From NCBI GenBank assembly GCA_043817315.1, contig JBDRGY010000004.1:797-64796 (forward strand): DNA of 64,000 nucleotides, in the 5' to 3' direction. A program made the position numbers and the translations under genes. Positions 23,383 through 54,845 of this stretch are shown here, piece after piece. The stretch is from Patescibacteria group bacterium (GTDB taxonomy: Bacteria > Patescibacteriota > Patescibacteriia > JBDRGY01). Numbering within the stretch: position 1 is the stretch's first letter; the number at the start of each line of letters is the position of its first letter. The notes beneath the pieces are model-generated. The model searched no databases and was not told the origin of the DNA. It saw only the letters and a program-made list of their open reading frames with translations.

Positions 23383-23631
23383 TGTTTTTATTATAGATTA
23401 ATTCCCTAATTTTTAACAGGTTATTATAGACTAAAAATCATAAAATGTCAACCCCGAAACAAATTTATGATTTCTGAACCCTTTTTTGGGCCCCTTTTTT
23501 AAACTAGCATTTTATTATATATTGAAACGCTATATTATTTCTGGTTTGTTTATACATTTATGTACAAATAGACCCAAATCTTATCAGTTACGGAAAATTT
23601 GTTACGGGGTCAAGGCTTGCTGGTTTTGATA

Positions 23632-27760: not shown

Positions 27761-27845
27761 TTTTTTCCTCCTTTGGCGGCAGGTTTCAGGTTTCTAATGA
27801 ACAAAGGATAGTTGATAAAATTACCACAGTCAGCAATTTGTTGTC

Positions 27846-27985
27846 AAACAAAAAATCCGGGGTGAACCGGATTATTATCGTTTACCATTGCGAGTCCCGA
27901 GCTATGCTCGGAGCGCGGCAATCCCGTTCTCTTACAGTATCGGGATTACTTCACTTCGCTCCGGCGGAGTTCGCAATGGTTAGTG
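27846..27985 (-). promoter_or_regulatory. GC-rich structured RNA element (about 110 nt) ending in an intrinsic terminator, between a CAP gene and the membrane-protein gene
   Basis: Long-range closing stem CCATTGCGA...TCGCAATGG enclosing three hairpins. Then AATCCGG-ttcacc-CCGGATT followed by TTTTTTGTTT on the minus strand. Confidence 0.3.
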
Positions 27986-37392: not shown

Positions 37393-37959
37393 ATGCTTGA
37401 ACACTTATTTGGTTCACGGACCAGAGTTAAATTGCTTCGATTATTTCTGTCCAATCAGGAAAGAGCCTTTTTTGTCCGGGAATTAACTCGCAAAATTAAT
37501 GAGCGTATAAATTCTGTTAGGCGCGAACTGACCAATTTAGAGAAAATAGGAATTATTATCAAGAGAACAGAGAAGAGAAAAGTTTATTACCAAGTCGATA
37601 AAGAACACATCCTTTATCAGGAATTAAGAACTTTGATCTTAAAAGCGGAAGTTGGCTTGGAGAGAAGCTTGGCCCGTACCATTAAGAATATCGGAAATGT
37701 TCGGCTGATGGTTTTAACCGGTATGTTTACCGGCATGAAAGAAGAAACCCAGACTGACATGTTAATCGTGGGTACAATTAACCGAAAAAAGTTAGCTAAC
37801 CTGATGATAAAGTTTCAGACTGACTTTGGTCGTCAGATCAACTATACCGTGATGACTTCCAAAGAATACAAATACCGCAGTGATTTAACGGACCGATTTT
37901 TATTCAACATTCTGGAGAACAATAAAGTTGTCTTGGTGGATAAGATAAATACGGAATAA
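37393..37959 (+). CDS. winged-helix transcriptional regulator-like protein
   Basis: MLEHLFGSRTRVKLLRLFLSN...FFVRELTRKIN N-terminal wHTH pattern. Start at internal ATG. Confidence 0.5.
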   Translation: MLEHLFGSRTRVKLLRLFLSNQERAFFVRELTRKINERINSVRRELTNLEKIGIIIKRTEKRKVYYQVDKEHILYQELRTLILKAEVGLERSLARTIKNIGNVRLMVLTGMFTGMKEETQTDMLIVGTINRKKLANLMIKFQTDFGRQINYTVMTSKEYKYRSDLTDRFLFNILENNKVVLVDKINTE

Positions 37960-49445: not shown

Positions 49446-49958
49446 ATGAAAATTGCCCTAAAAATAATTTTCGTTATCTTGTTAATTTGGGGCACAATCG
49501 TCATCGCCAGAGGGGGTTACATCGGTTTACTAGATAACGTTAATCTGATATGGCACGAAGCAGGCCATACCTTATTTGTTTTCTTCGGTGATTTCGTCAG
49601 AATATTAGGGGGATCACTGACTCAAGTCTTAATACCGCTACTATGTGGTGTTGTTTTTTTAGTCAAGCGCCAGTGGTTTGCCAGCACTTTCGCTTTGTGG
49701 TGGGCAGGCCAAAATCTTACTAATGTCAGTATCTATATTGGTGATGCCCGGGCTCTGAAGTTAGACCTTATTGGTGGAGAGGCCTCTATCCATGACTGGA
49801 ATTATCTTTTGGGGATGATGGGCCAGCGGCATTTGGATATGGCCATAGCTAGTTATGTCTGGTGGATCGGGATGATAGCCATGGGAGCAGCCCTGTTTTT
49901 AACACTTTATTTTATTTGGCGTGATGACATCAAAACCAAAAAGGGGATAGCGCTTTAA
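49446..49958 (+). CDS. membrane protein (unknown function)
   Basis: Four to five TM helices. Confidence 0.5.
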   Translation: MKIALKIIFVILLIWGTIVIARGGYIGLLDNVNLIWHEAGHTLFVFFGDFVRILGGSLTQVLIPLLCGVVFLVKRQWFASTFALWWAGQNLTNVSIYIGDARALKLDLIGGEASIHDWNYLLGMMGQRHLDMAIASYVWWIGMIAMGAALFLTLYFIWRDDIKTKKGIAL

Positions 49959-49982
49959 AACCACTAAAAATTAATTATTACC

Positions 49983-50013
49983 AAAAAACACCCCCTATTT
50001 AGGGTGATTTTTT
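49983..50013. terminator. bidirectional rho-independent terminator
   Basis: AAAAAA-CACCC-cctattta-GGGTG-ATTTTTT. Confidence 0.6.
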
Positions 50014-50020
50014 AACGGAA

Positions 50021-50275
50021 AGAAAATAGGGGACAAGCGTGTTGATTGCCTGTCCCCTGACGCATAGCCATGTAGAGTGCAGATCGGAACGTCCAGGTGT
50101 TGAGCCTGGAACCTAATCGTTGGCTGCAACGACCTGAGGCTATCAACCTCTTTAAGGACGCCCTAATTTGGCACCTCCCCCTTTCGGGCATTTGCGGCTT
50201 CGCGTCGACATGAACCCGCCTACCAAGAGGCGGGGGGTACCGCGACAGCAGTCATCATCGTCTGCCCTGCTGCCA
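50021..50275 (-). ncRNA. candidate structured ncRNA 1 (about 250 nt, GC-rich, ORF-free), identity unassigned
   Basis: Minus-strand TTGACA(50310-50305)-17-TAATAT(50287-50282) promoter. No ORF over 42 codons in any frame. Multiple GC hairpins including a CCC-GAAA-GGG GNRA hairpin. Ends in GGGGACA...TGTCCCC followed by UAUUUUCU. Confidence 0.35.
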
Positions 50276-50323
50276 ATAATTATATTAGATAAAAGCAATT
50301 AATATGTCAATTGATATATTGTG

Positions 50324-50354
50324 GAAAAAAAACGGGCAAGTTTTTAACTTGCCC
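50324..50354 (-). terminator. rho-independent terminator (after the small acidic ORF)
   Basis: GGGCAAG-ttaaaaa-CTTGCCC followed by GTTTTTTTT on the minus strand. Confidence 0.6.
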
Positions 50355-50497
50355 TAAAGATCGTCTGCCTCTTCTTCAAGCTCGATACTTCTGATGACAG
50401 CAGCCAGGTCATGTTCCTGGCTAACGGGTACAGGCTGATCTTCACCGTCTTCTTCTCTCATCCAATTCTCGGGATTTATCAGTTCGGCATGGTGCAC
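50354..50497 (-). CDS. small acidic protein (48 aa with GTG start, or 35 aa from the internal ATG)
   Basis: AAGGAGG then 5 nt then GTG. ...MREEDGEDQPVPVSQEHDLAAVIRSIELEEEADDL*. Below the ORF-track size cutoff. Confidence 0.3.
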   Translation of the reverse strand: MHHAELINPENWMREEDGEDQPVPVSQEHDLAAVIRSIELEEEADDL

Positions 50498-50820
50498 TTT
50501 ATCCTCCTTGGTTGGAGCTTCTCCACAAAAACCTTAAGTTTGACATTATGACCGAAAGAGTTGGGGACATCTCCAGCCGGAGCCGTCAAAGCCATCCTGG
50601 GGCGCCGACTTACGGTCTGGGGTGCAATGAGCTGTTGCTTCAATATTGCGGAGGTTGAGAGCGGTTGAGAGCAAGTGTTTGTAGATCGTGCCTATTTACC
50701 GATCTCTCAGCCTCCACTTGGAGAAGGAGTATGAAGCGAATTAATTCTATCTGATAATACGAATCTAGTCAAAAAAATTTGACAAAATATAGTTTAGTAA
50801 TAATATGGAAGCAGCTCTTT

Positions 50821-51294
50821 ATGTCGGATAACACTTTAGGCCAAAAGCGAAGGAGGGACCAAGTGTCTGAATCGAGACAAGGCTTACCTCGAGTTCTTGT
50901 CATCTTAGCCAAGAGAAAATTCAACCGGGACTTGGGAAGCGGTGGGACTCCCACATATTGGTTAGTGCACAGTGAAGTGGTGGAGCTCCATACTTGTACT
51001 ACTTGCCGAGGTTTGATCCGGCAGATTCGAAGTGCTCAGCGCCAGTCCCGACCTTTTGGGGCAGTAGTGGTGGAGGCGACTGATAACGAATCCAGCATTC
51101 GCCAGGAAGTGCTGGAAGAAGCTATGGAGCATATACCGGAAGGTACTACTTTGTTGAAAATAGAAAAGGGGCCGGTCTGTATGCAAGTCTGTTCTTTTGA
51201 CGCTGCGGAAGGCGATTTCGCGGTACGGGGCAACAGTACCAGCGGCGACCGCTTAGCCGCAACCATCATGGCCCTTTGCTCATCAGCACAATAG
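50821..51294 (+). CDS. hypothetical GC-rich protein (start uncertain; GTG at 50857 has a perfect AAGGAGG SD)
   Basis: The listed ORF starts at 50779, but a TTGACA-16-TAATAT promoter lies inside it. Internal ATG at 50821 or GTG at 50857. Confidence 0.4.
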   Translation: MSDNTLGQKRRRDQVSESRQGLPRVLVILAKRKFNRDLGSGGTPTYWLVHSEVVELHTCTTCRGLIRQIRSAQRQSRPFGAVVVEATDNESSIRQEVLEEAMEHIPEGTTLLKIEKGPVCMQVCSFDAAEGDFAVRGNSTSGDRLAATIMALCSSAQ

Positions 51295-51299
51295 TCTAT

Positions 51300-51380
51300 A
51301 CCAGGGCGCTTCCTTAAGAAGCGTCTTTTTAAATAAAAAAGACGTATCCTGGAATCTGGATACGTCTTATGAATAAGGTA
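51300..51380. terminator. pair of convergent terminators
   Basis: GCGCTTC-cttaa-GAAGCG followed by TCTTTTT for plus. AGACGTATCC-agattcca-GGATACGTCT followed by TTTTTTATTT on minus. Confidence 0.6.
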
Positions 51381-51387
51381 CATCTCT

Positions 51388-51642
51388 TCAGCTGTCGTTG
51401 CCTTCGGCAGGTGGCTGCCATTCAGTCAGCAGTCGTTCCGGGACGAAAGTCTTGCCGTGAGGTTCGTCTGACTGGGTGTCGAAAACCTCTACCTCTAGCC
51501 AGTTCTGCGGTCTTTCCCCATTTGGCTTGACTTCGCCAGTCAACCTGAGCCTATTACCCTCCGGAGTCAATTGACCCAGCTTGGTGGTGACCGGAGCACG
51601 GACAGTACAAAAGACAACTTCTCCCTTCTCTGGAACTGACAT
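51388..51642 (-). CDS. small GC-rich protein, family member A (LLTEW family)
   Basis: SD AGGAGA. ...LRLTGEVKPNGERPQNWLEVEVFDTQSDEPHGKTFVPERLLTEWQPP. Confidence 0.55.
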   Translation of the reverse strand: MSVPEKGEVVFCTVRAPVTTKLGQLTPEGNRLRLTGEVKPNGERPQNWLEVEVFDTQSDEPHGKTFVPERLLTEWQPPAEGNDS

Positions 51643-51789
51643 AGGTCTCTCCTGGTATGGGCCTGGACCATCACTTCGACCTTAGCCAGCTCATGCTGCC
51701 GTAAGTGATTACATTTTAGTTCTAATTAGGTTTTTGTCAAGAAATGAGCGCATCGCGTCGGAGACGCGATGCGCTCTGGAAAACTCCTC

Positions 51790-52038
51790 CTAGATTCCCT
51801 TGAACGGCCAATGCCACTCGGTCAGCAGAACCTGCGGAAAAACTGCCCTACCCAACACCTTATCGTCCAGGAAGTTTCTCCTGACCTCTGCTTCAACTCC
51901 GGCAGCTGGCCTGCCTTGCCAGACAACCTGTTCTTCATGACCCGTTAAGATCAGGTAGTGATCGTCTGGGGTTACTTCTCCAAAGTCAGTGTCAAACGGT
52001 TCTCTGACTTTGTGTCTTTTGGCATCGATCAGGCCCAT
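51790..52038 (-). CDS. small GC-rich protein, family member B
   Basis: Start at the internal ATG with SD AGGAGG (MGLIDAKRHK...). ...LILTGHEEQVVWQGRPAAGVEAEVRRNF...RAVFPQVLLTEWHWP. Confidence 0.55.
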   Translation of the reverse strand: MGLIDAKRHKVREPFDTDFGEVTPDDHYLILTGHEEQVVWQGRPAAGVEAEVRRNFLDDKVLGRAVFPQVLLTEWHWPFKGI

Positions 52039-52173
52039 CCCTATCCTCCTGTCGGCGGTTTTTGCCGGCCCAACTACCTGATTACCGAAATGTATTAATA
52101 ATACTATTCTATATTTTCTATTTGTCAAGAAAAAGAGTATAATAATTGTGTAGGATTATTAATCAAAATAGCA

Positions 52174-52761
52174 ATGGAACAAGAAAAAAACGATTATCAA
52201 CAACCAAGTCAATTTGGCAACCAAGAACCGGCCAAAAAACATTTTGGCTTGAAAAAAGCAGTTCTGGTCATCAGCATTGTTATTGTCTTGAATCTGTTTA
52301 TCGGCTATGGCATAACTACTTTTTGGCATACACCCCAATATGAGGACTACTGCACCGAGGAGATTACCTCTAAGACATATTCTGACCAGGAATCCTGTGA
52401 AGCAGCTGGAGGTAAATGGATAATAAGCGCAGAAGTGGGTGTCCCGGAAGAGAAAAGCAGAATAAGTAATTGGTGTGAAATGGATTACCAGTGCCGGCAG
52501 GAGTATCAAGCAGCTTCCGATGTTTATGGCCGTAACTTCTTTGTCGTTGAAATAATAGCTGGAGTAATTCTGATAGTAGTCGGCTTGTTTGCCATCAAGG
52601 CCCAGTCGGTTTCTTTGGGGCTTTCTTTCGGTGGTCTGCTGGCCTTGATTGTCGGTACCATGCGGCACTGGTCAGGGATGCAGGAATATCTGAGATTTAT
52701 CATTCTAGGTCTGGCCCTGATTATCCTGATCTGGGTGGGAGTCAAGAAGTTCAAAGATTAA
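52174..52761 (+). CDS. membrane protein (host-like AT-rich composition)
   Basis: N-terminal TM, a Cys-containing ectodomain, C-terminal TMs. Confidence 0.5.
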   Translation: MEQEKNDYQQPSQFGNQEPAKKHFGLKKAVLVISIVIVLNLFIGYGITTFWHTPQYEDYCTEEITSKTYSDQESCEAAGGKWIISAEVGVPEEKSRISNWCEMDYQCRQEYQAASDVYGRNFFVVEIIAGVILIVVGLFAIKAQSVSLGLSFGGLLALIVGTMRHWSGMQEYLRFIILGLALIILIWVGVKKFKD

Positions 52762-52773
52762 TCACAATATTTT

Positions 52774-53538
52774 ATGCGAGTAGACGATCAAGACAAGTCT
52801 AAAAAAGAAGAAAAACTAAAGGAAGAGTCAAAACAACCAGAACCTGCTAGAGGAGACAAGCCCAAAAAGAAGGGCCACCTGTTACGCAACTGTTTTATCA
52901 TTGTGCTCATTGTCTTCATTTTATTGATCTTGGCGATTGTTTCCCTGTTCTTCTTTAAGGTCCCGGTTATTTCTTCAATCGTTGGATTAAACAGTCAGAA
53001 GGATTTGGGGATTGAAGCCACTGAGGAAGCTAAAGACAGTGCCCAGCAAAAAGTGCCCTGGCAATTTACGGCTGAGATGTCGGAATATACCTTGACGGGG
53101 AATAGAACTTTTTCCGGGAAGATGGACTTAGATGTAGAACTGACATCAGAAGAGGTTACTTCCTACCTTGGACTAATGGGATTTCCGGATGAAGTCATTG
53201 AAAATGTCCAAGTTAAAATGGTTGAAGGCGGAATGGAAATTTCTTCTCAGATAAAAGAGCCGGTTAACTTACCAGTATATTTTAAAGTAGATATAGATAA
53301 GGAGTCAGCCAAAAGTGTCAGCCTAGACATTCAGAAAGCTAAAGTGGGATGGTTCTCTGTACCGCAAAAGTACATAGATCAGGCCGAAGAGTTTTTCCAA
53401 GACACAGTCAATGGGAGGTTAACGGAGGTGGAGGCAGTAAGCATCGAAACCCTTGAGTATCATGACGGCTATTCCGTTTTTAAAGGCACAGTGCCTGAGA
53501 AAGTGGAACCAGCTTATGGTAAATGGCTTGATATCTAA
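52774..53538 (+). CDS. membrane-anchored protein with Lys/Glu-rich N-terminal tail
   Basis: Single TM and an extracytoplasmic domain. Confidence 0.5.
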   Translation: MRVDDQDKSKKEEKLKEESKQPEPARGDKPKKKGHLLRNCFIIVLIVFILLILAIVSLFFFKVPVISSIVGLNSQKDLGIEATEEAKDSAQQKVPWQFTAEMSEYTLTGNRTFSGKMDLDVELTSEEVTSYLGLMGFPDEVIENVQVKMVEGGMEISSQIKEPVNLPVYFKVDIDKESAKSVSLDIQKAKVGWFSVPQKYIDQAEEFFQDTVNGRLTEVEAVSIETLEYHDGYSVFKGTVPEKVEPAYGKWLDI

Positions 53539-53607
53539 GCTAGTATAAATCAAACAGAACCCGGGTCAATAGGCTTGGGTTCTTATATATAAAAAAACGG
53601 ACGACTA

Positions 53608-53892
53608 TCAAGTCGTCCGGATAAGCCAATCGGGCAGATCTTCGGTCATGATGTGTCTGATCGGTACCACGACGGGACCGTTGTAGGAAGCCTTGCCGCT
53701 CTCCAGCTCCACCTCAATACCGCATTCGAAACGCCAGTGTCCTCGAGGATCGTGGAAGATGGCAATGCCCTCTTCTCCGGTAACCCGGCCGGAAGCACCA
53801 TGAGGGATTTTGACCGTCTTACCATGATGACCCAACACTTCCACTTCACCTACTTCTACCTGTAAGCCTTTCAATTGACTGATTTTCAACAT
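53608..53892 (-). CDS. small GC-rich protein, family member C
   Basis: Start at the internal ATG with SD GGGAGGA (MLKISQLKG...). ...RVTGEEGIAIFHDPRGHWRFECGIEVELESGKASYNGPVVVPIRHIMTEDLPDW. Confidence 0.5.
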   Translation of the reverse strand: MLKISQLKGLQVEVGEVEVLGHHGKTVKIPHGASGRVTGEEGIAIFHDPRGHWRFECGIEVELESGKASYNGPVVVPIRHIMTEDLPDWLIRTT

Positions 53893-54058
53893 GATCCTAT
53901 CCTCCCAAGGAAAGGTGGGGGTTCTTGATGCCCGATTGCTAAGGTACATTTGCCTTATCTTACAGTTTCTCTTTTATTTAGTCAAACCCTGCACCAGACG
54001 GTGCAGGGTAAATTAAAAAGGACGGCGGATAGTTTGCCGTCCAATGAACATGGGCCCT

Positions 54059-54280
54059 CTAGCCCTCGACTGGGTCCAGATGAGTGGCTGGCACCAAGAC
54101 ATGGTCACCTTCGACTACCACTTCGATCAGCAGCCCCTGATCTTGTGAGGGTAGTTTGGCCTCGTGAGCCAGTCTGGCCTCAGTACCTTGGAGCAAAACC
54201 TTGGGCAAGGTGCCGACTCTGACATCGGCCCTCTGGTTGACTATAACTCTGGTTCCTGCCATCAGCTTGCTATTGGCCAT
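54059..54280 (-). CDS. small GC-rich protein, family member D (shorter)
   Basis: MANSKLMAGTRVIV...GLLIEVVVEGDHVLVPATHLDP. Confidence 0.45.
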   Translation of the reverse strand: MANSKLMAGTRVIVNQRADVRVGTLPKVLLQGTEARLAHEAKLPSQDQGLLIEVVVEGDHVLVPATHLDPVEG

Positions 54281-54436
54281 GATGTTCCCCCCTGGTTGTC
54301 GCTCTCCCGTTCTTAAGACCCGAAACAGTTTATTACAATATTACTTATTGATTTTTTTGTCAAGCCCTGCATCAGACGATGCAGAGCAAGTAGATAAAAA
54401 AAGATGGCAGATGCTCTTGCCATCTTGGGCCGTGGG

Positions 54437-54709
54437 CTAGCGGCTCTCATCAACCAGTCCCAGCATGACATCAGTGATGTCGATGACTCCTGGTTCCCGG
54501 TCGGGCCCGATCAAGCAGACCATGCCTCGGTGCACCTGGCCAAACTCATCGGTGAACTCCCGGTCCTCTCCCAGGTAGCGAAACTGGGTGCCGCCCGGGA
54601 ATCGGTAGTTGCGAGGCGAATCATCTTTCTTGATCGGAGCCTCTTTCTGTCCCGGGGCCGGAGACTTTAGCTCCAGCTACTTACCATTTAGTTCTGCCCT
54701 GGTGACCAT
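54437..54709 (-). pseudogene. family member E interrupted by an in-frame TAG after codon 10
   Basis: SD GGGGG then 7 nt then ATG. MVTRAELNGK*LELKSP...RFPGGTQFRYLGEDREFTDEFGQVHRGMVCLIGPDREPGVIDITDVMLGLVDESR*. Stop at 54677-54679. Not in the ORF track because it has no long ATG-initiated frame. Confidence 0.4.
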
Positions 54710-54845
54710 TTGGTTACCCCCTTTTCGGGCCTCCTACCTCGTAGATTTGGCGCCCTGGAATGAACATTTAAACTTAAGGGATATTAAAGAATTTGTCAAG
54801 GCCTTAGCCGTAGTCAAAGCTCTTTTGTCAATGGGCGGCTTTTGC

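What the first reader, a model, noticed from the sequence alone, without database searches (positions are those of the whole stretch)
50021..50310. Candidate about 250-nt structured ncRNA with its own promoter and terminator (unassigned)
This 250-nt GC-rich stretch in an AT-rich genome has no ORF over 42 codons on either strand. A near-consensus minus-strand promoter (TTGACA-17-TAATAT) sits upstream, and an intrinsic terminator (GGGGACA...UGUCCCC followed by UAUUUUCU) sits downstream. The body folds into several stable hairpins including a GAAA-tetraloop hairpin. The size suits a housekeeping RNA such as RNase P RNA, tmRNA, long SRP RNA or 6S RNA, or a novel RNA. By eye I could not match RNase P CR-I/CR-V, the tmRNA TLD or the SRP domain IV consensus.
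Basis: seen in the sequence. Interest (0 to 1): 0.6.

Follow-up and report, generated by a model that had tools for sequence, protein, structure and literature searches.

The report
Orphan small non-coding transcription unit
A roughly 250-base stretch with its own promoter and a strong terminator, showing no sign of coding for protein, sits at the end of a row of tiny stand-alone genes in a Patescibacteria genome; it is probably a lineage-specific small RNA, is not a housekeeping RNA, and its folded structure and function remain unproven.

Summary
Three of its claims need correcting.

- **ORFs:** there is a 59-codon ATG ORF and a 79-codon open frame, not "no ORF over 42 codons".
- **GC content:** the high GC (56% vs 42%) is shared by six neighbouring mini-genes, so it is not RNA-specific.
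- **Fold signal:** the fold z-score comes mostly from the terminator. The body alone scores z about -1.7, ordinary for intergenic DNA here.

Rfam 15, ARAGORN and reading by eye find no RNase P RNA, tmRNA, SRP RNA or 6S RNA. No frame has coding-like codon usage, and the longest frame has no protein homologue. The unit does not resemble the neighbouring small-protein family, even when frameshifts are allowed.

I found no RNA homologue. The only other copy is 100% identical and comes from the same population, so covariation cannot be tested.

Best reading (about 0.45): a stand-alone, lineage-specific non-coding RNA cassette in a hypervariable array of promoter-gene-terminator units. Main rival (about 0.28): an eroded cassette. 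Interest is low.

The parts
50334..50354 (-). Intrinsic terminator of the upstream unit F (47-aa ORF). It insulates the candidate from read-through.
   Evidence: GGGCAAGTTAAAAACTTGCCC followed by T8; 9-bp stem.
50301..50320 (.). 20-bp near-perfect palindrome AATATATCAATTGACATATT covering the -35 hexamer. Possible operator for a dimeric DNA-binding protein (inference only).
   Evidence: Inverted repeat I10, 93% complementary. It is unique in the window, and the relaxed pattern occurs at chance level elsewhere.
50282..50310 (-). Sigma-70-type promoter: -35 TTGACA (50310-50305), 17-nt spacer, -10 TAATAT (50287-50282).
   Evidence: It uses the same TTGAC[AT] type as the promoters of the neighbouring units at 54363, 53985, 52128, 51740 and 50772.
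50024..50277 (-). Predicted transcript of about 250 nt. The start (50274-50277) and the end (in the U-tract near 50024) are inferred, not mapped.
   Evidence: Position relative to the -10 hexamer and the U-tract. No coding signal in any of six frames. No Rfam family.
50244..50274 (-). 5' hairpin GGCAGCAG / CUGCUGUC (8 bp).
   Evidence: Mean pair probability 0.99 in the ensemble.
50226..50238 (-). C-rich stretch ACCCCCCGCCUCU, resembling an anti-Shine-Dalgarno sequence.
   Evidence: Read from the sequence. Its local pairing is only moderately defined, P 0.6-0.7.
50059..50206 (-). Predicted long imperfect rod domain. It is closed by GACGCG/UGCGUC and AGCCG/UGGCU, has an inner 8-bp helix GGGCGUCC/GGACGUUC, and carries two small side hairpins.
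   Evidence: Pair probabilities 0.89-0.99 for the main helices. The z-score of this domain is only -1.9.
50179..50188 (-). CCC-GAAA-GGG tetraloop hairpin.
   Evidence: P 0.68.
50172..50178 (-). Perfect Shine-Dalgarno-like GGAGGUG. It is followed after 4 nt by AUU rather than by AUG, GUG or UUG.
   Evidence: Read from the sequence. The frame it would open has non-coding codon usage.
50017..50058 (-). Intrinsic terminator T1: 11-bp stem AGGGGACAGGC / GCUUGUCCCCU with a 9-nt loop, then AUUUUCUUUCC.
   Evidence: P 0.99; -20.1 kcal/mol, among the top three in the window. The simple scan missed it because the loop exceeds 8 nt.
49989..50006 (.). Second, bidirectional terminator. It also ends the convergent 170-aa gene ABIB97_03010.
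   Evidence: Listed on both strands, with T-runs on both sides.
50012..50191 (-). 59-codon ATG ORF (part of the 79-codon open frame 50251-50015), judged non-coding.
   Evidence: It has no SD sequence. It runs through terminator T1 to a stop codon beyond the U-tract. Its codon score is -0.35, against +0.19 to +0.38 for real neighbours. It has no homologue and is not called in any assembly.

Best explanation
The element is a stand-alone, non-coding cassette at the end of a hypervariable array of promoter-gene-terminator mini-units in a Patescibacteria (CPR) genome.

It is most likely transcribed from its own sigma-70-type promoter to its own strong intrinsic terminator, giving an RNA of about 250 nt that is not translated. 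It would then act in trans as a lineage-specific small RNA.

The transcription-unit anatomy and the lack of coding signal are shown by the sequence. Transcription itself is inferred.

The mode of action is a guess. The RNA would use either its exposed C-rich anti-SD-like stretch (ACCCCCCGCCUCU) or its perfect SD-like GGAGGUG to pair with G-rich ribosome-binding sites or to titrate an RNA-binding factor. I give that specific step only about 0.1-0.15.

It is not a housekeeping RNA.
For: **Transcription-unit anatomy**
- An upstream terminator, then a 10/12 promoter, then about 250 nt, then one of the three strongest terminators in the window, all on the minus strand.
- The promoter is of the same TTGAC[AT] type as those of six neighbouring units that carry real genes annotated in the NCBI record.

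**Non-coding**
- All six frames score -0.22 to -0.35 log2-odds per codon, and no 25-codon window goes above +0.03.
- The neighbouring small genes score +0.19 to +0.38 in frame by leave-one-out, including the one with an in-frame stop.
- The longest frame has no homologue among 5.8 billion protein clusters.
- No ORF of the region is called in the protein collection, which draws on NCBI, ENA and Logan assemblies.
- The NCBI record has no feature between ABIB97_03010 and ABIB97_03015.

**Not an eroded copy of the neighbouring family**
- The family HMM gives no hit at E<=50.
- Frameshift-tolerant alignment to six family members gives z from -1.1 to +0.2.
- DNA similarity to the other units is at chance level.

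**Signals kept while coding signal is absent**
- Near-consensus promoter and terminator alongside total absence of coding signal fits selection on a non-coding product better than neutral decay does (inference).
Against: - No diverged homologue was found. The only other full copy (L009) is 100% identical and from the same population. There is therefore no conservation or covariation evidence.
- The body's predicted folding is not better than chance: z is -1.7 without the terminator, and it is unremarkable among intergenic windows.
- No complementarity longer than 12 nt to anything in the 64-kb window, which is the chance level.
- It lies in a fast-changing region where other units show decay (in-frame stop in unit A) and where synteny with the nearest relative is lost.
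- A promoter match of this quality is common in this window.
- No expression data.
Confidence: 0.45

Rival explanations
1. It is an eroded cassette. It was once a small protein gene like its neighbours, with a promoter, an ORF of about 80 codons and a terminator. The reading frame has been destroyed. It may still be transcribed, but the product has no function.
For: - Same strand, architecture, size class and GC as units A-F.
- The array shows decay: unit A has an in-frame TAG at codon 11, and unit F has a 240-nt leader with no coding signal before a 47-aa ORF.
- The region is hypervariable between relatives.
- A 79-codon open frame persists.
- The body is not significantly structured.
- No homologue anywhere.
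Against: - No residual similarity to the family in any frame, even allowing frameshifts.
- No residual codon bias, even locally, whereas unit A with its stop codon keeps it.
- The promoter and terminator are still near-consensus, although the coding signal would have had to decay completely.
Confidence: 0.28
2. The signals are juxtaposed by chance, and there is no dedicated transcript. The promoter-like site is one of many chance matches. The hairpins serve only to stop convergent or read-through transcription between unit F and the 170-aa gene.
For: - Promoter-like sites at 10/12 or better are no more frequent than in shuffles: 28 against 24 +/- 5.
- Tandem terminators between convergent genes are common.
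Against: - Unit F already has its own strong terminator at 50354-50334, so a further 290 nt with a second minus-strand-specific terminator is unexplained.
- The positional probability of the promoter is about 0.01.
- The terminator ranks in the top three of the window.
- The 56% GC body differs from typical spacers here, which have GC 0.18-0.47.
Confidence: 0.12
3. It encodes a small protein. This would be either the 59-codon ATG ORF (50191-50012), or a 51-codon version of it started at AUU four nucleotides after the perfect SD GGAGGUG.
For: - The ORF exists.
- A perfect SD-like GGAGGUG sits at 50178-50172, with AUU a short distance downstream.
Against: - There is no SD before the ATG.
- AUU is not a normal start codon.
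- The ORF runs through terminator T1, and its stop codon lies beyond the U-tract.
- Its codon score is -0.35, like the off-frames of real genes.
- The product is Arg- and Cys-rich, unlike the acidic neighbours.
- No homologue.
- Not called by NCBI, ENA or Logan gene finders.
Confidence: 0.05
4. It is a highly divergent housekeeping RNA that Rfam models miss in CPR bacteria. 6S RNA is the least implausible candidate.
For: - The size is compatible.
- It has a strong promoter.
- A 148-nt imperfect rod domain is predicted.
- 6S RNA is poorly conserved in sequence (general knowledge).
Against: - No match to any Rfam family, even at E<=10 on the region alone.
- ARAGORN is negative.
- There are no CR-I/CR-V, tmRNA tRNA-like domain or SRP domain IV sequences by reading.
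- The predicted fold is two 5' hairpins plus a branched rod, not a closed rod with a central bubble.
- It lies in a hypervariable cassette array.
- It was not found in the available part of the nearest relative.
Confidence: 0.04

Closest known systems
Generic bacterial intergenic small RNA gene (sigma-70 promoter, no ORF, Rho-independent terminator)
   Same: - Own promoter and own strong intrinsic terminator.
- About 250 nt.
- No coding signal.
- A 5' hairpin and C-rich and G-rich single-stranded-looking stretches of the kind used as seed regions by some Gram-positive sRNAs (the latter comparison is from general knowledge, not tested here).
   Different: No homologue, no target complementarity within the window, no expression data, and no significant structure beyond the terminator. 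It belongs to no described family.
Phage 'moron'-type autonomous cassettes (promoter-gene-terminator units with composition unlike the surroundings)
   Same: Each unit of the array, this one included, is bracketed by its own promoter and terminator. Each has a higher GC than the flanking genome.
   Different: There are no phage genes or PHROG/PADLOC matches nearby. This unit carries no gene. The comparison concerns architecture only.
6S RNA
   Same: Size range, and a predicted long imperfect helix in part of the molecule.
   Different: No Rfam match. There are extra 5' hairpins and no evident central bubble. It is not conserved at the locus. It lies in a variable region rather than a housekeeping context.
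Small beta-barrel protein cassettes of the same array (ABIB97_03025, 03030, 03045, 03050)
   Same: Same strand, promoter type, terminator type, unit length class and GC.
   Different: No sequence similarity at DNA or protein level, no Shine-Dalgarno-plus-start arrangement, and no codon bias.

Membership tests
Bacterial RNase P RNA | Match to the covariance models (Rfam RNase P families), including the P4 helix built from CR-I and CR-V | tested here: not met
   No hit at gathering in the window. No hit at E<=10 on the region. No GAGGAAAGUCC or ACAGAA-type sequences on reading.
tmRNA | tRNA-like domain plus tag-peptide reading frame | tested here: not met
   ARAGORN finds only tRNA-Pro in the window. 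There is no Rfam hit.
SRP RNA (small or long bacterial type) | Domain IV / helix 8 motif with a GNAR tetraloop and conserved internal loops; match to the Rfam SRP models | tested here: not met
   No Rfam hit at any threshold used.
6S RNA | Match to the Rfam 6S models | tested here: not met
   No hit at E<=10.
6S RNA | Single closed rod with a large central bubble, 5' and 3' ends paired | tested here: not met
   The MFE and ensemble fold has an independent 5' hairpin, a second local hairpin region, a branched rod at 50206-50059 and a separate terminator. This is a single-sequence prediction only.
6S RNA | Binding to RNA polymerase holoenzyme | not testable with these tools
   This needs an experiment.
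Intergenic trans-acting sRNA gene (generic kind) | Own promoter | tested here: met
   TTGACA-17-TAATAT at 50310-50282. It lies directly after the upstream unit's terminator.
Intergenic trans-acting sRNA gene (generic kind) | Rho-independent terminator | tested here: met
   11-bp stem plus U-tract, -20.1 kcal/mol.
Intergenic trans-acting sRNA gene (generic kind) | No protein-coding signal | tested here: met
   Codon-usage log-odds are negative in all six frames. There is no homologue and no gene call.
Intergenic trans-acting sRNA gene (generic kind) | Discrete transcript detected | not testable with these tools
   No RNA-seq data are available.
Intergenic trans-acting sRNA gene (generic kind) | Conservation or covariation in relatives | tested here: inconclusive
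   Only a 100% identical copy from the same population was found. The protein-anchored scans of genome and metagenome contigs, the metagenome and viral DNA-pattern scans, and the phage and plasmid BLAST searches found no homologue. Whole genomes of relatives could not be searched with a profile.
Small beta-barrel protein cassette family of this array (as a pseudogene) | Recognisable similarity to family members in some frame | tested here: not met
   HMM search of the six-frame translation gives no hit at E<=50. Frameshift-tolerant alignment gives z from -1.1 to +0.2.
Small beta-barrel protein cassette family of this array (as a pseudogene) | Same cassette architecture (promoter, about 250-300 nt, terminator, minus strand, GC above 50%) | tested here: met
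Riboswitch or cis-regulatory leader | A downstream gene on the same strand under its control | tested here: not met
   The unit ends in two terminators and faces the convergent 170-aa gene. There is no Rfam riboswitch hit.

The most novel reading that the evidence does not exclude
The RNA is the non-coding partner of the small beta-barrel proteins encoded by the neighbouring cassettes. These proteins weakly resemble the Sm/LSm fold. On this reading the hypervariable array would be a previously undescribed RNA-plus-RNA-binding-protein cassette system in CPR bacteria, for example for host interaction or defence.
Probability: 0.05. Interest if true: 0.6.

Novelty: new member of a known kind. Interest (0 to 1): 0.2.

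Why it matters
If it is real, it would be one more lineage-specific small RNA in a Patescibacteria genome. Almost nothing is known about RNA-based regulation in this group, and such streamlined genomes are not expected to keep useless transcription units.

Its practical value is modest. It is an orphan with no family, no target and no expression evidence.

The more informative finding is the context. It lies in an array of autonomous promoter-gene-terminator mini-cassettes with high GC, rapid turnover and signs of decay.

Tried and rejected
**Known RNA families**
- Rfam 15 at gathering thresholds on the whole window found only tRNA-Pro.
- Permissive Rfam scans of 49900-50450, 50020-50285 and 50300-52300 gave only sub-threshold noise.
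- ARAGORN found no tmRNA.

**Search for homologues**
- blastn against phages and plasmids: no match.
- Loci of relatives anchored on the adjacent 170-aa protein: none.
- Loci anchored on MurF: 7 loci, the nearest with 80% MurF identity, and no RNA hit by nhmmer.
- The 276-aa neighbour in JGI metagenomes: none.
- The 276-aa neighbour in the protein database: only itself and the L002 homologue, whose contigs end too early.
- Exact-protein look-ups returned only same-population contigs.
- DNA-pattern scans of viral contigs (4 patterns) and JGI metagenomes (1 gapped pattern) gave only chance hits in unrelated coding regions.

**Possible relationships that did not hold up**
- Homology to the structured 3' region of the relative L002: z -0.65, rejected.
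- A paralogue elsewhere in the window: none.
- The motif GCCCGAAA..GGGGG..CCAAAT shared with unit A's leader looked striking. It is within chance by Smith-Waterman against shuffles and has 20 chance matches in metagenomes.
- A decayed member of the small-protein family: no support.
- A DGR template repeat: there is no second copy or variable repeat in the window. This was not pursued further.

**Coding**
- Codon test, homologue search and cluster look-up were all negative.

**Targets**
- RNAduplex on translation-initiation regions gave physically implausible multi-loop duplexes and was discarded.
- The longest contiguous complementarity is 12 nt or less, which is chance level.

**Context proteins**
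- Pfam, PADLOC and PHROGs found nothing.
- Exhaustive HMMER with the small-protein family found only the window's own proteins plus three giant proteins, one of them scanned and found to carry Ig domains.
- The AlphaFold2 model (pLDDT 79) has no significant Foldseek match. The best are Sm/LSm chains at E 0.14-0.4.
- A PDB profile search found nothing.

Full report
**What is at the coordinates**

On the minus strand, the order of features is as follows.

| Feature | Coordinates | Source |
|---|---|---|
| Terminator of the upstream unit | 50354-50334 | |
| -35/-10 pair TTGACA-17-TAATAT | 50310-50282 | |
| About 250 nt of 56% GC sequence | 50277-50024 (inferred) | |
| 11-bp hairpin AGGGGACAGGC/GCUUGUCCCCU, then AUUUUCUUUCC | 50058-50017 | |
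| Second, bidirectional terminator, which also closes the convergent 170-aa gene | 50006-49989 | |

The simple terminator scan missed the first hairpin only because its loop is 9 nt. In my own scan it is among the three most stable terminator-like hairpins of the 64-kb window, at -20.1 kcal/mol. The CCC-GAAA-GGG hairpin is present at 50188-50179.

So the physical description is right. One statement is wrong: there is a 59-codon ATG ORF (50191-50012), a 48-codon TTG ORF and a 79-codon stop-free frame, not 'no ORF over 42 codons'.

**Is it more than chance?**

*Promoter.* Sites with 10 of 12 matches or better occur 28 times in the window, against 24 +/- 5 in shuffles. The match alone means little. 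Its placement within the few tens of bases between one terminator and a GC-rich body that ends in a top-ranked terminator has a chance probability of about 0.01.

*Folding.* The folding z-score that looks impressive for the whole unit (-4.4; -3.9) falls to -1.7 once the terminator hairpin is removed. The 145-nt core scores -1.9 and the 5' part -1.2. The mRNAs of the neighbouring small genes range from +0.6 to -1.5. In a scan of all intergenic gaps (mean z -0.74, sd 1.42), no window from the interior of the unit is among the best 25. The claim of a 'structured' body is therefore not established by thermodynamics.

*GC content.* GC is 55.8% against 42.4% for the window. But the six neighbouring units have GC 0.49-0.57, so the composition is a property of the local island, not of this RNA.

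**Where it sits**

The window comes from a Patescibacteria (CPR) MAG.
- The neighbours are ABIB97_03005 (276 aa), 03010 (170 aa), 03015 (47 aa), 03020 (143 aa), 03025 (83 aa), 03030, 03035, 03040, 03045 and 03050.
- The consecutive tags 03010 and 03015 flank the candidate, so the NCBI record annotates nothing there.
- Upstream lies the mraZ-rsmH-ftsL-ftsI-murF cluster.

Reading the minus strand from 54810 to 50025 shows seven mini-units of one design. Each has a TTGAC[AT] promoter, usually a Shine-Dalgarno sequence and a 73-94-codon ORF, and an intrinsic terminator.

| Unit | Coordinates | Content |
|---|---|---|
| A | 54810-54400 | ORF with an in-frame TAG at codon 11 |
| B | 54363-54020 | 73-aa ORF |
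| C | 53985-53598 | 94-aa ORF |
| D | 52128-51746 | 81-aa ORF (82 aa in the NCBI record) |
| E | 51740-51339 | 83-aa ORF |
| F | 50772-50334 | 240-nt non-coding leader plus a 47-aa ORF |
| G | 50310-50017 | the candidate |

The proteins of A-E form a divergent paralogue family with 18-38% identity and a C-terminal motif such as LLTEW. The family has no Pfam, PADLOC or PHROG match. In an exhaustive search of 1.84 billion representatives it has essentially no relatives.

An AlphaFold2 model of the 83-aa member (pLDDT 79) is a small all-beta barrel. Its best PDB matches are Sm/LSm chains, but only at E 0.14-0.4. I treat that as a lead, not a finding.

**Is the candidate coding, or a dead copy of its neighbours?**

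*Codon usage.* A codon-usage model trained on the island's genes gives the true frame of each real gene +0.19 to +0.38 log2-odds per codon by leave-one-out. This includes unit A with its stop codon. The 143-aa plus-strand gene is the one exception: its true frame scores -0.09, though that is still its best frame. Off-frames score -0.08 to -0.46. All six frames of the candidate score -0.22 to -0.35, and no 25-codon window exceeds +0.03.

*Homologues and gene calls.*
- The 79-codon frame has no homologue among 5.8 billion protein clusters.
- None of the region's ORFs is in the 15-billion-protein collection.
- The ENA gene calls on contigs spanning the unit skip it.

*The 59-codon ORF.* It has no SD sequence, runs through terminator T1 and stops only beyond the U-tract.

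*Similarity to the family.*
- A family HMM finds nothing in any frame.
- A frameshift-tolerant protein-to-DNA alignment scores at or below shuffles, z from -1.1 to +0.2.
- DNA alignment to units A-F and to the relative's unit is at chance.

So the sequence is non-coding, and it is not recognisably a decayed family member. An old, fully eroded cassette cannot be excluded. But such erosion would be expected to degrade the promoter and terminator too, and they are near-consensus.

**Is it a known RNA?**

No.
- Rfam 15 reports only tRNA-Pro in the window at gathering thresholds.
- With permissive filters on 551 nt and on 266 nt, the best hits are 12-22 bits against gathering scores of 37-85, mostly on the wrong strand or over the terminators.
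- ARAGORN finds no tmRNA.
- The predicted fold has four parts: a very stable 8-bp 5' hairpin, a poorly defined C-rich region, a 148-nt imperfect rod with two small side hairpins, and the terminator. It is not a 6S-like closed rod, and it carries none of the RNase P or SRP signature sequences.

**Homologues**

I found none with any divergence. The searches are listed in full under 'tried and rejected'.
- The nearest relative (MurF 80% identical) is held as L002, with L012 the same contig and L011 a second assembly. It keeps synteny through the 276-aa gene and the first 47 residues of the 170-aa gene, then differs.
- At the corresponding position L002 has an 89-aa paralogue of the cassette family, followed by a 230-nt strongly folding 3' region (z -6.1). 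That region is not similar to the candidate (z -0.65). Its contigs end before anything further.
- Two ENA contigs and one Logan contig of the same population cover parts of the unit. L009 covers it all and is 100% identical, while differing at 8 positions elsewhere in 2.1 kb. With about one substitution expected in 290 nt, that is uninformative.
- Scans of genome, metagenome and viral collections, and BLAST against phages and plasmids, gave nothing or only chance matches.
- Covariation therefore cannot be tested with the data I could reach.

**How it most likely works**

The steps, with their basis:
1. *Shown by sequence:* an autonomous transcription unit, insulated upstream and terminated twice downstream.
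2. *Shown by sequence statistics:* no coding capacity.
3. *Inferred:* it is transcribed as an RNA of about 250 nt.
4. *Guess:* it acts in trans.

The only features suggestive of function are:
- a C-rich, anti-SD-like stretch (ACCCCCCGCCUCU, 50238-50226);
- a perfect SD-like GGAGGUG (50178-50172) with no usable start codon after it;
- a 20-bp palindrome over the -35 hexamer (50320-50301) that could be an operator.

I found no complementary target of more than 12 nt in the window. I put about 0.45 on 'functional or at least dedicated non-coding RNA cassette'. Within that, I put only 0.1-0.15 on a specific SD/anti-SD pairing or titration mechanism.

The main rival is an eroded cassette (0.28). 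Chance juxtaposition gets 0.12, a small protein 0.05 and a divergent housekeeping RNA 0.04.

**Verdict**

It is an orphan candidate sRNA, ordinary in kind, in an interesting but poorly understood cassette array. Interest is low (0.2). The array itself, and the idea that its small beta-barrel proteins and this RNA work together, is the only route to something novel, and I rate it unlikely (0.05).

Noticed in passing
window 50334-54810, minus strand: Array of six autonomous mini-units (A-F) besides the candidate. Each has a TTGAC[AT] promoter and an intrinsic terminator, and A-E carry a Shine-Dalgarno sequence and a 73-94-aa ORF. GC is 0.49-0.57 against 0.42 for the window. The proteins of A-E are divergent paralogues with a C-terminal LLTEW-like motif. 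The AlphaFold2 model is a small beta-barrel (pLDDT 79), with only weak Sm/LSm-like Foldseek hits (E 0.14-0.4). There is no Pfam, PADLOC or PHROG match and almost no relatives among 1.84 billion representatives.
   Followed up: partly
window 54677-54679 (unit A, ATG at 54709): In-frame TAG at codon 11 of an otherwise coding-looking 90-codon frame (codon score +0.19). It could be a pseudogene, a sequencing error or stop-codon read-through.
   Followed up: partly
window 50498-50744, minus strand: About 240 nt lie between the promoter of unit F and the SD-GTG start of the annotated 47-aa ORF (ABIB97_03015). They have no coding signal in any frame, and the fold z is -1.7. This is a second unexplained non-coding stretch next to the candidate. 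A 19-nt stretch (50593-50575) is 89% identical to L002 8963-8945, which is marginal (3 of 300 shuffles score as well).
   Followed up: partly
L002 8895-9135, minus strand: In the nearest relative, the 89-aa cassette gene is followed by a 230-nt region. It has a 13-bp long-range helix and a terminator, with z -6.07, and no promoter of its own. It is not similar to the candidate.
   Followed up: partly
window 54384-54367 and 54006-53989: A hairpin lies immediately upstream of the -35 hexamers of units B and C: CTGCATC-GTCT-GATGCAG and CTGCACC-GTCT-GGTGCAG. The two copies differ by a compensatory T:A to C:G change. It could be an operator or a structural element.
   Followed up: no
window 50301-50320: 20-bp near-perfect palindrome AATATATCAATTGACATATT overlapping the -35 hexamer of the candidate's promoter. 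It is unique in the window.
   Followed up: partly
L009 1-422 (joins window at 51630): In a 2.5-kb ENA contig of the same population, the 83-aa ORF is fused in frame to an unrelated AT-rich N-terminal ORF of about 137 codons. The breakpoint is at the start codon. Coverage is about 2x, so this is either a cassette rearrangement or an assembly chimera.
   Followed up: no
window 50125 and about 50293: In sample ERZ24794679 two contigs end on either side of the 5' half of the candidate: L001 at 50125 and L010 at about 50293. This could reflect population heterogeneity at this unit, or simply low coverage (4x).
   Followed up: no
window 49446-49958 versus L002 7840-7980: Synteny with the nearest relative ends inside the 170-aa membrane-protein gene. 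Only the first 47 residues are conserved (68% identity). The relative has a 62-aa remnant and then a different 262-aa membrane protein.
   Followed up: partly
window 27801-27960 (-), 23423-23582 (-), 37685-37844 (-): Other intergenic windows with fold z-scores of -4.2 to -4.8, stronger than the body of the candidate. No Rfam family matches at gathering thresholds.
   Followed up: no
L002 / L012 (JAIWBS010000059.1): The contig is deposited as 'Pirellulales bacterium', but it carries a CPR-type division and cell-wall cluster with MurF 80% identical to this Patescibacteria window. This is a probable binning contaminant.
   Followed up: no
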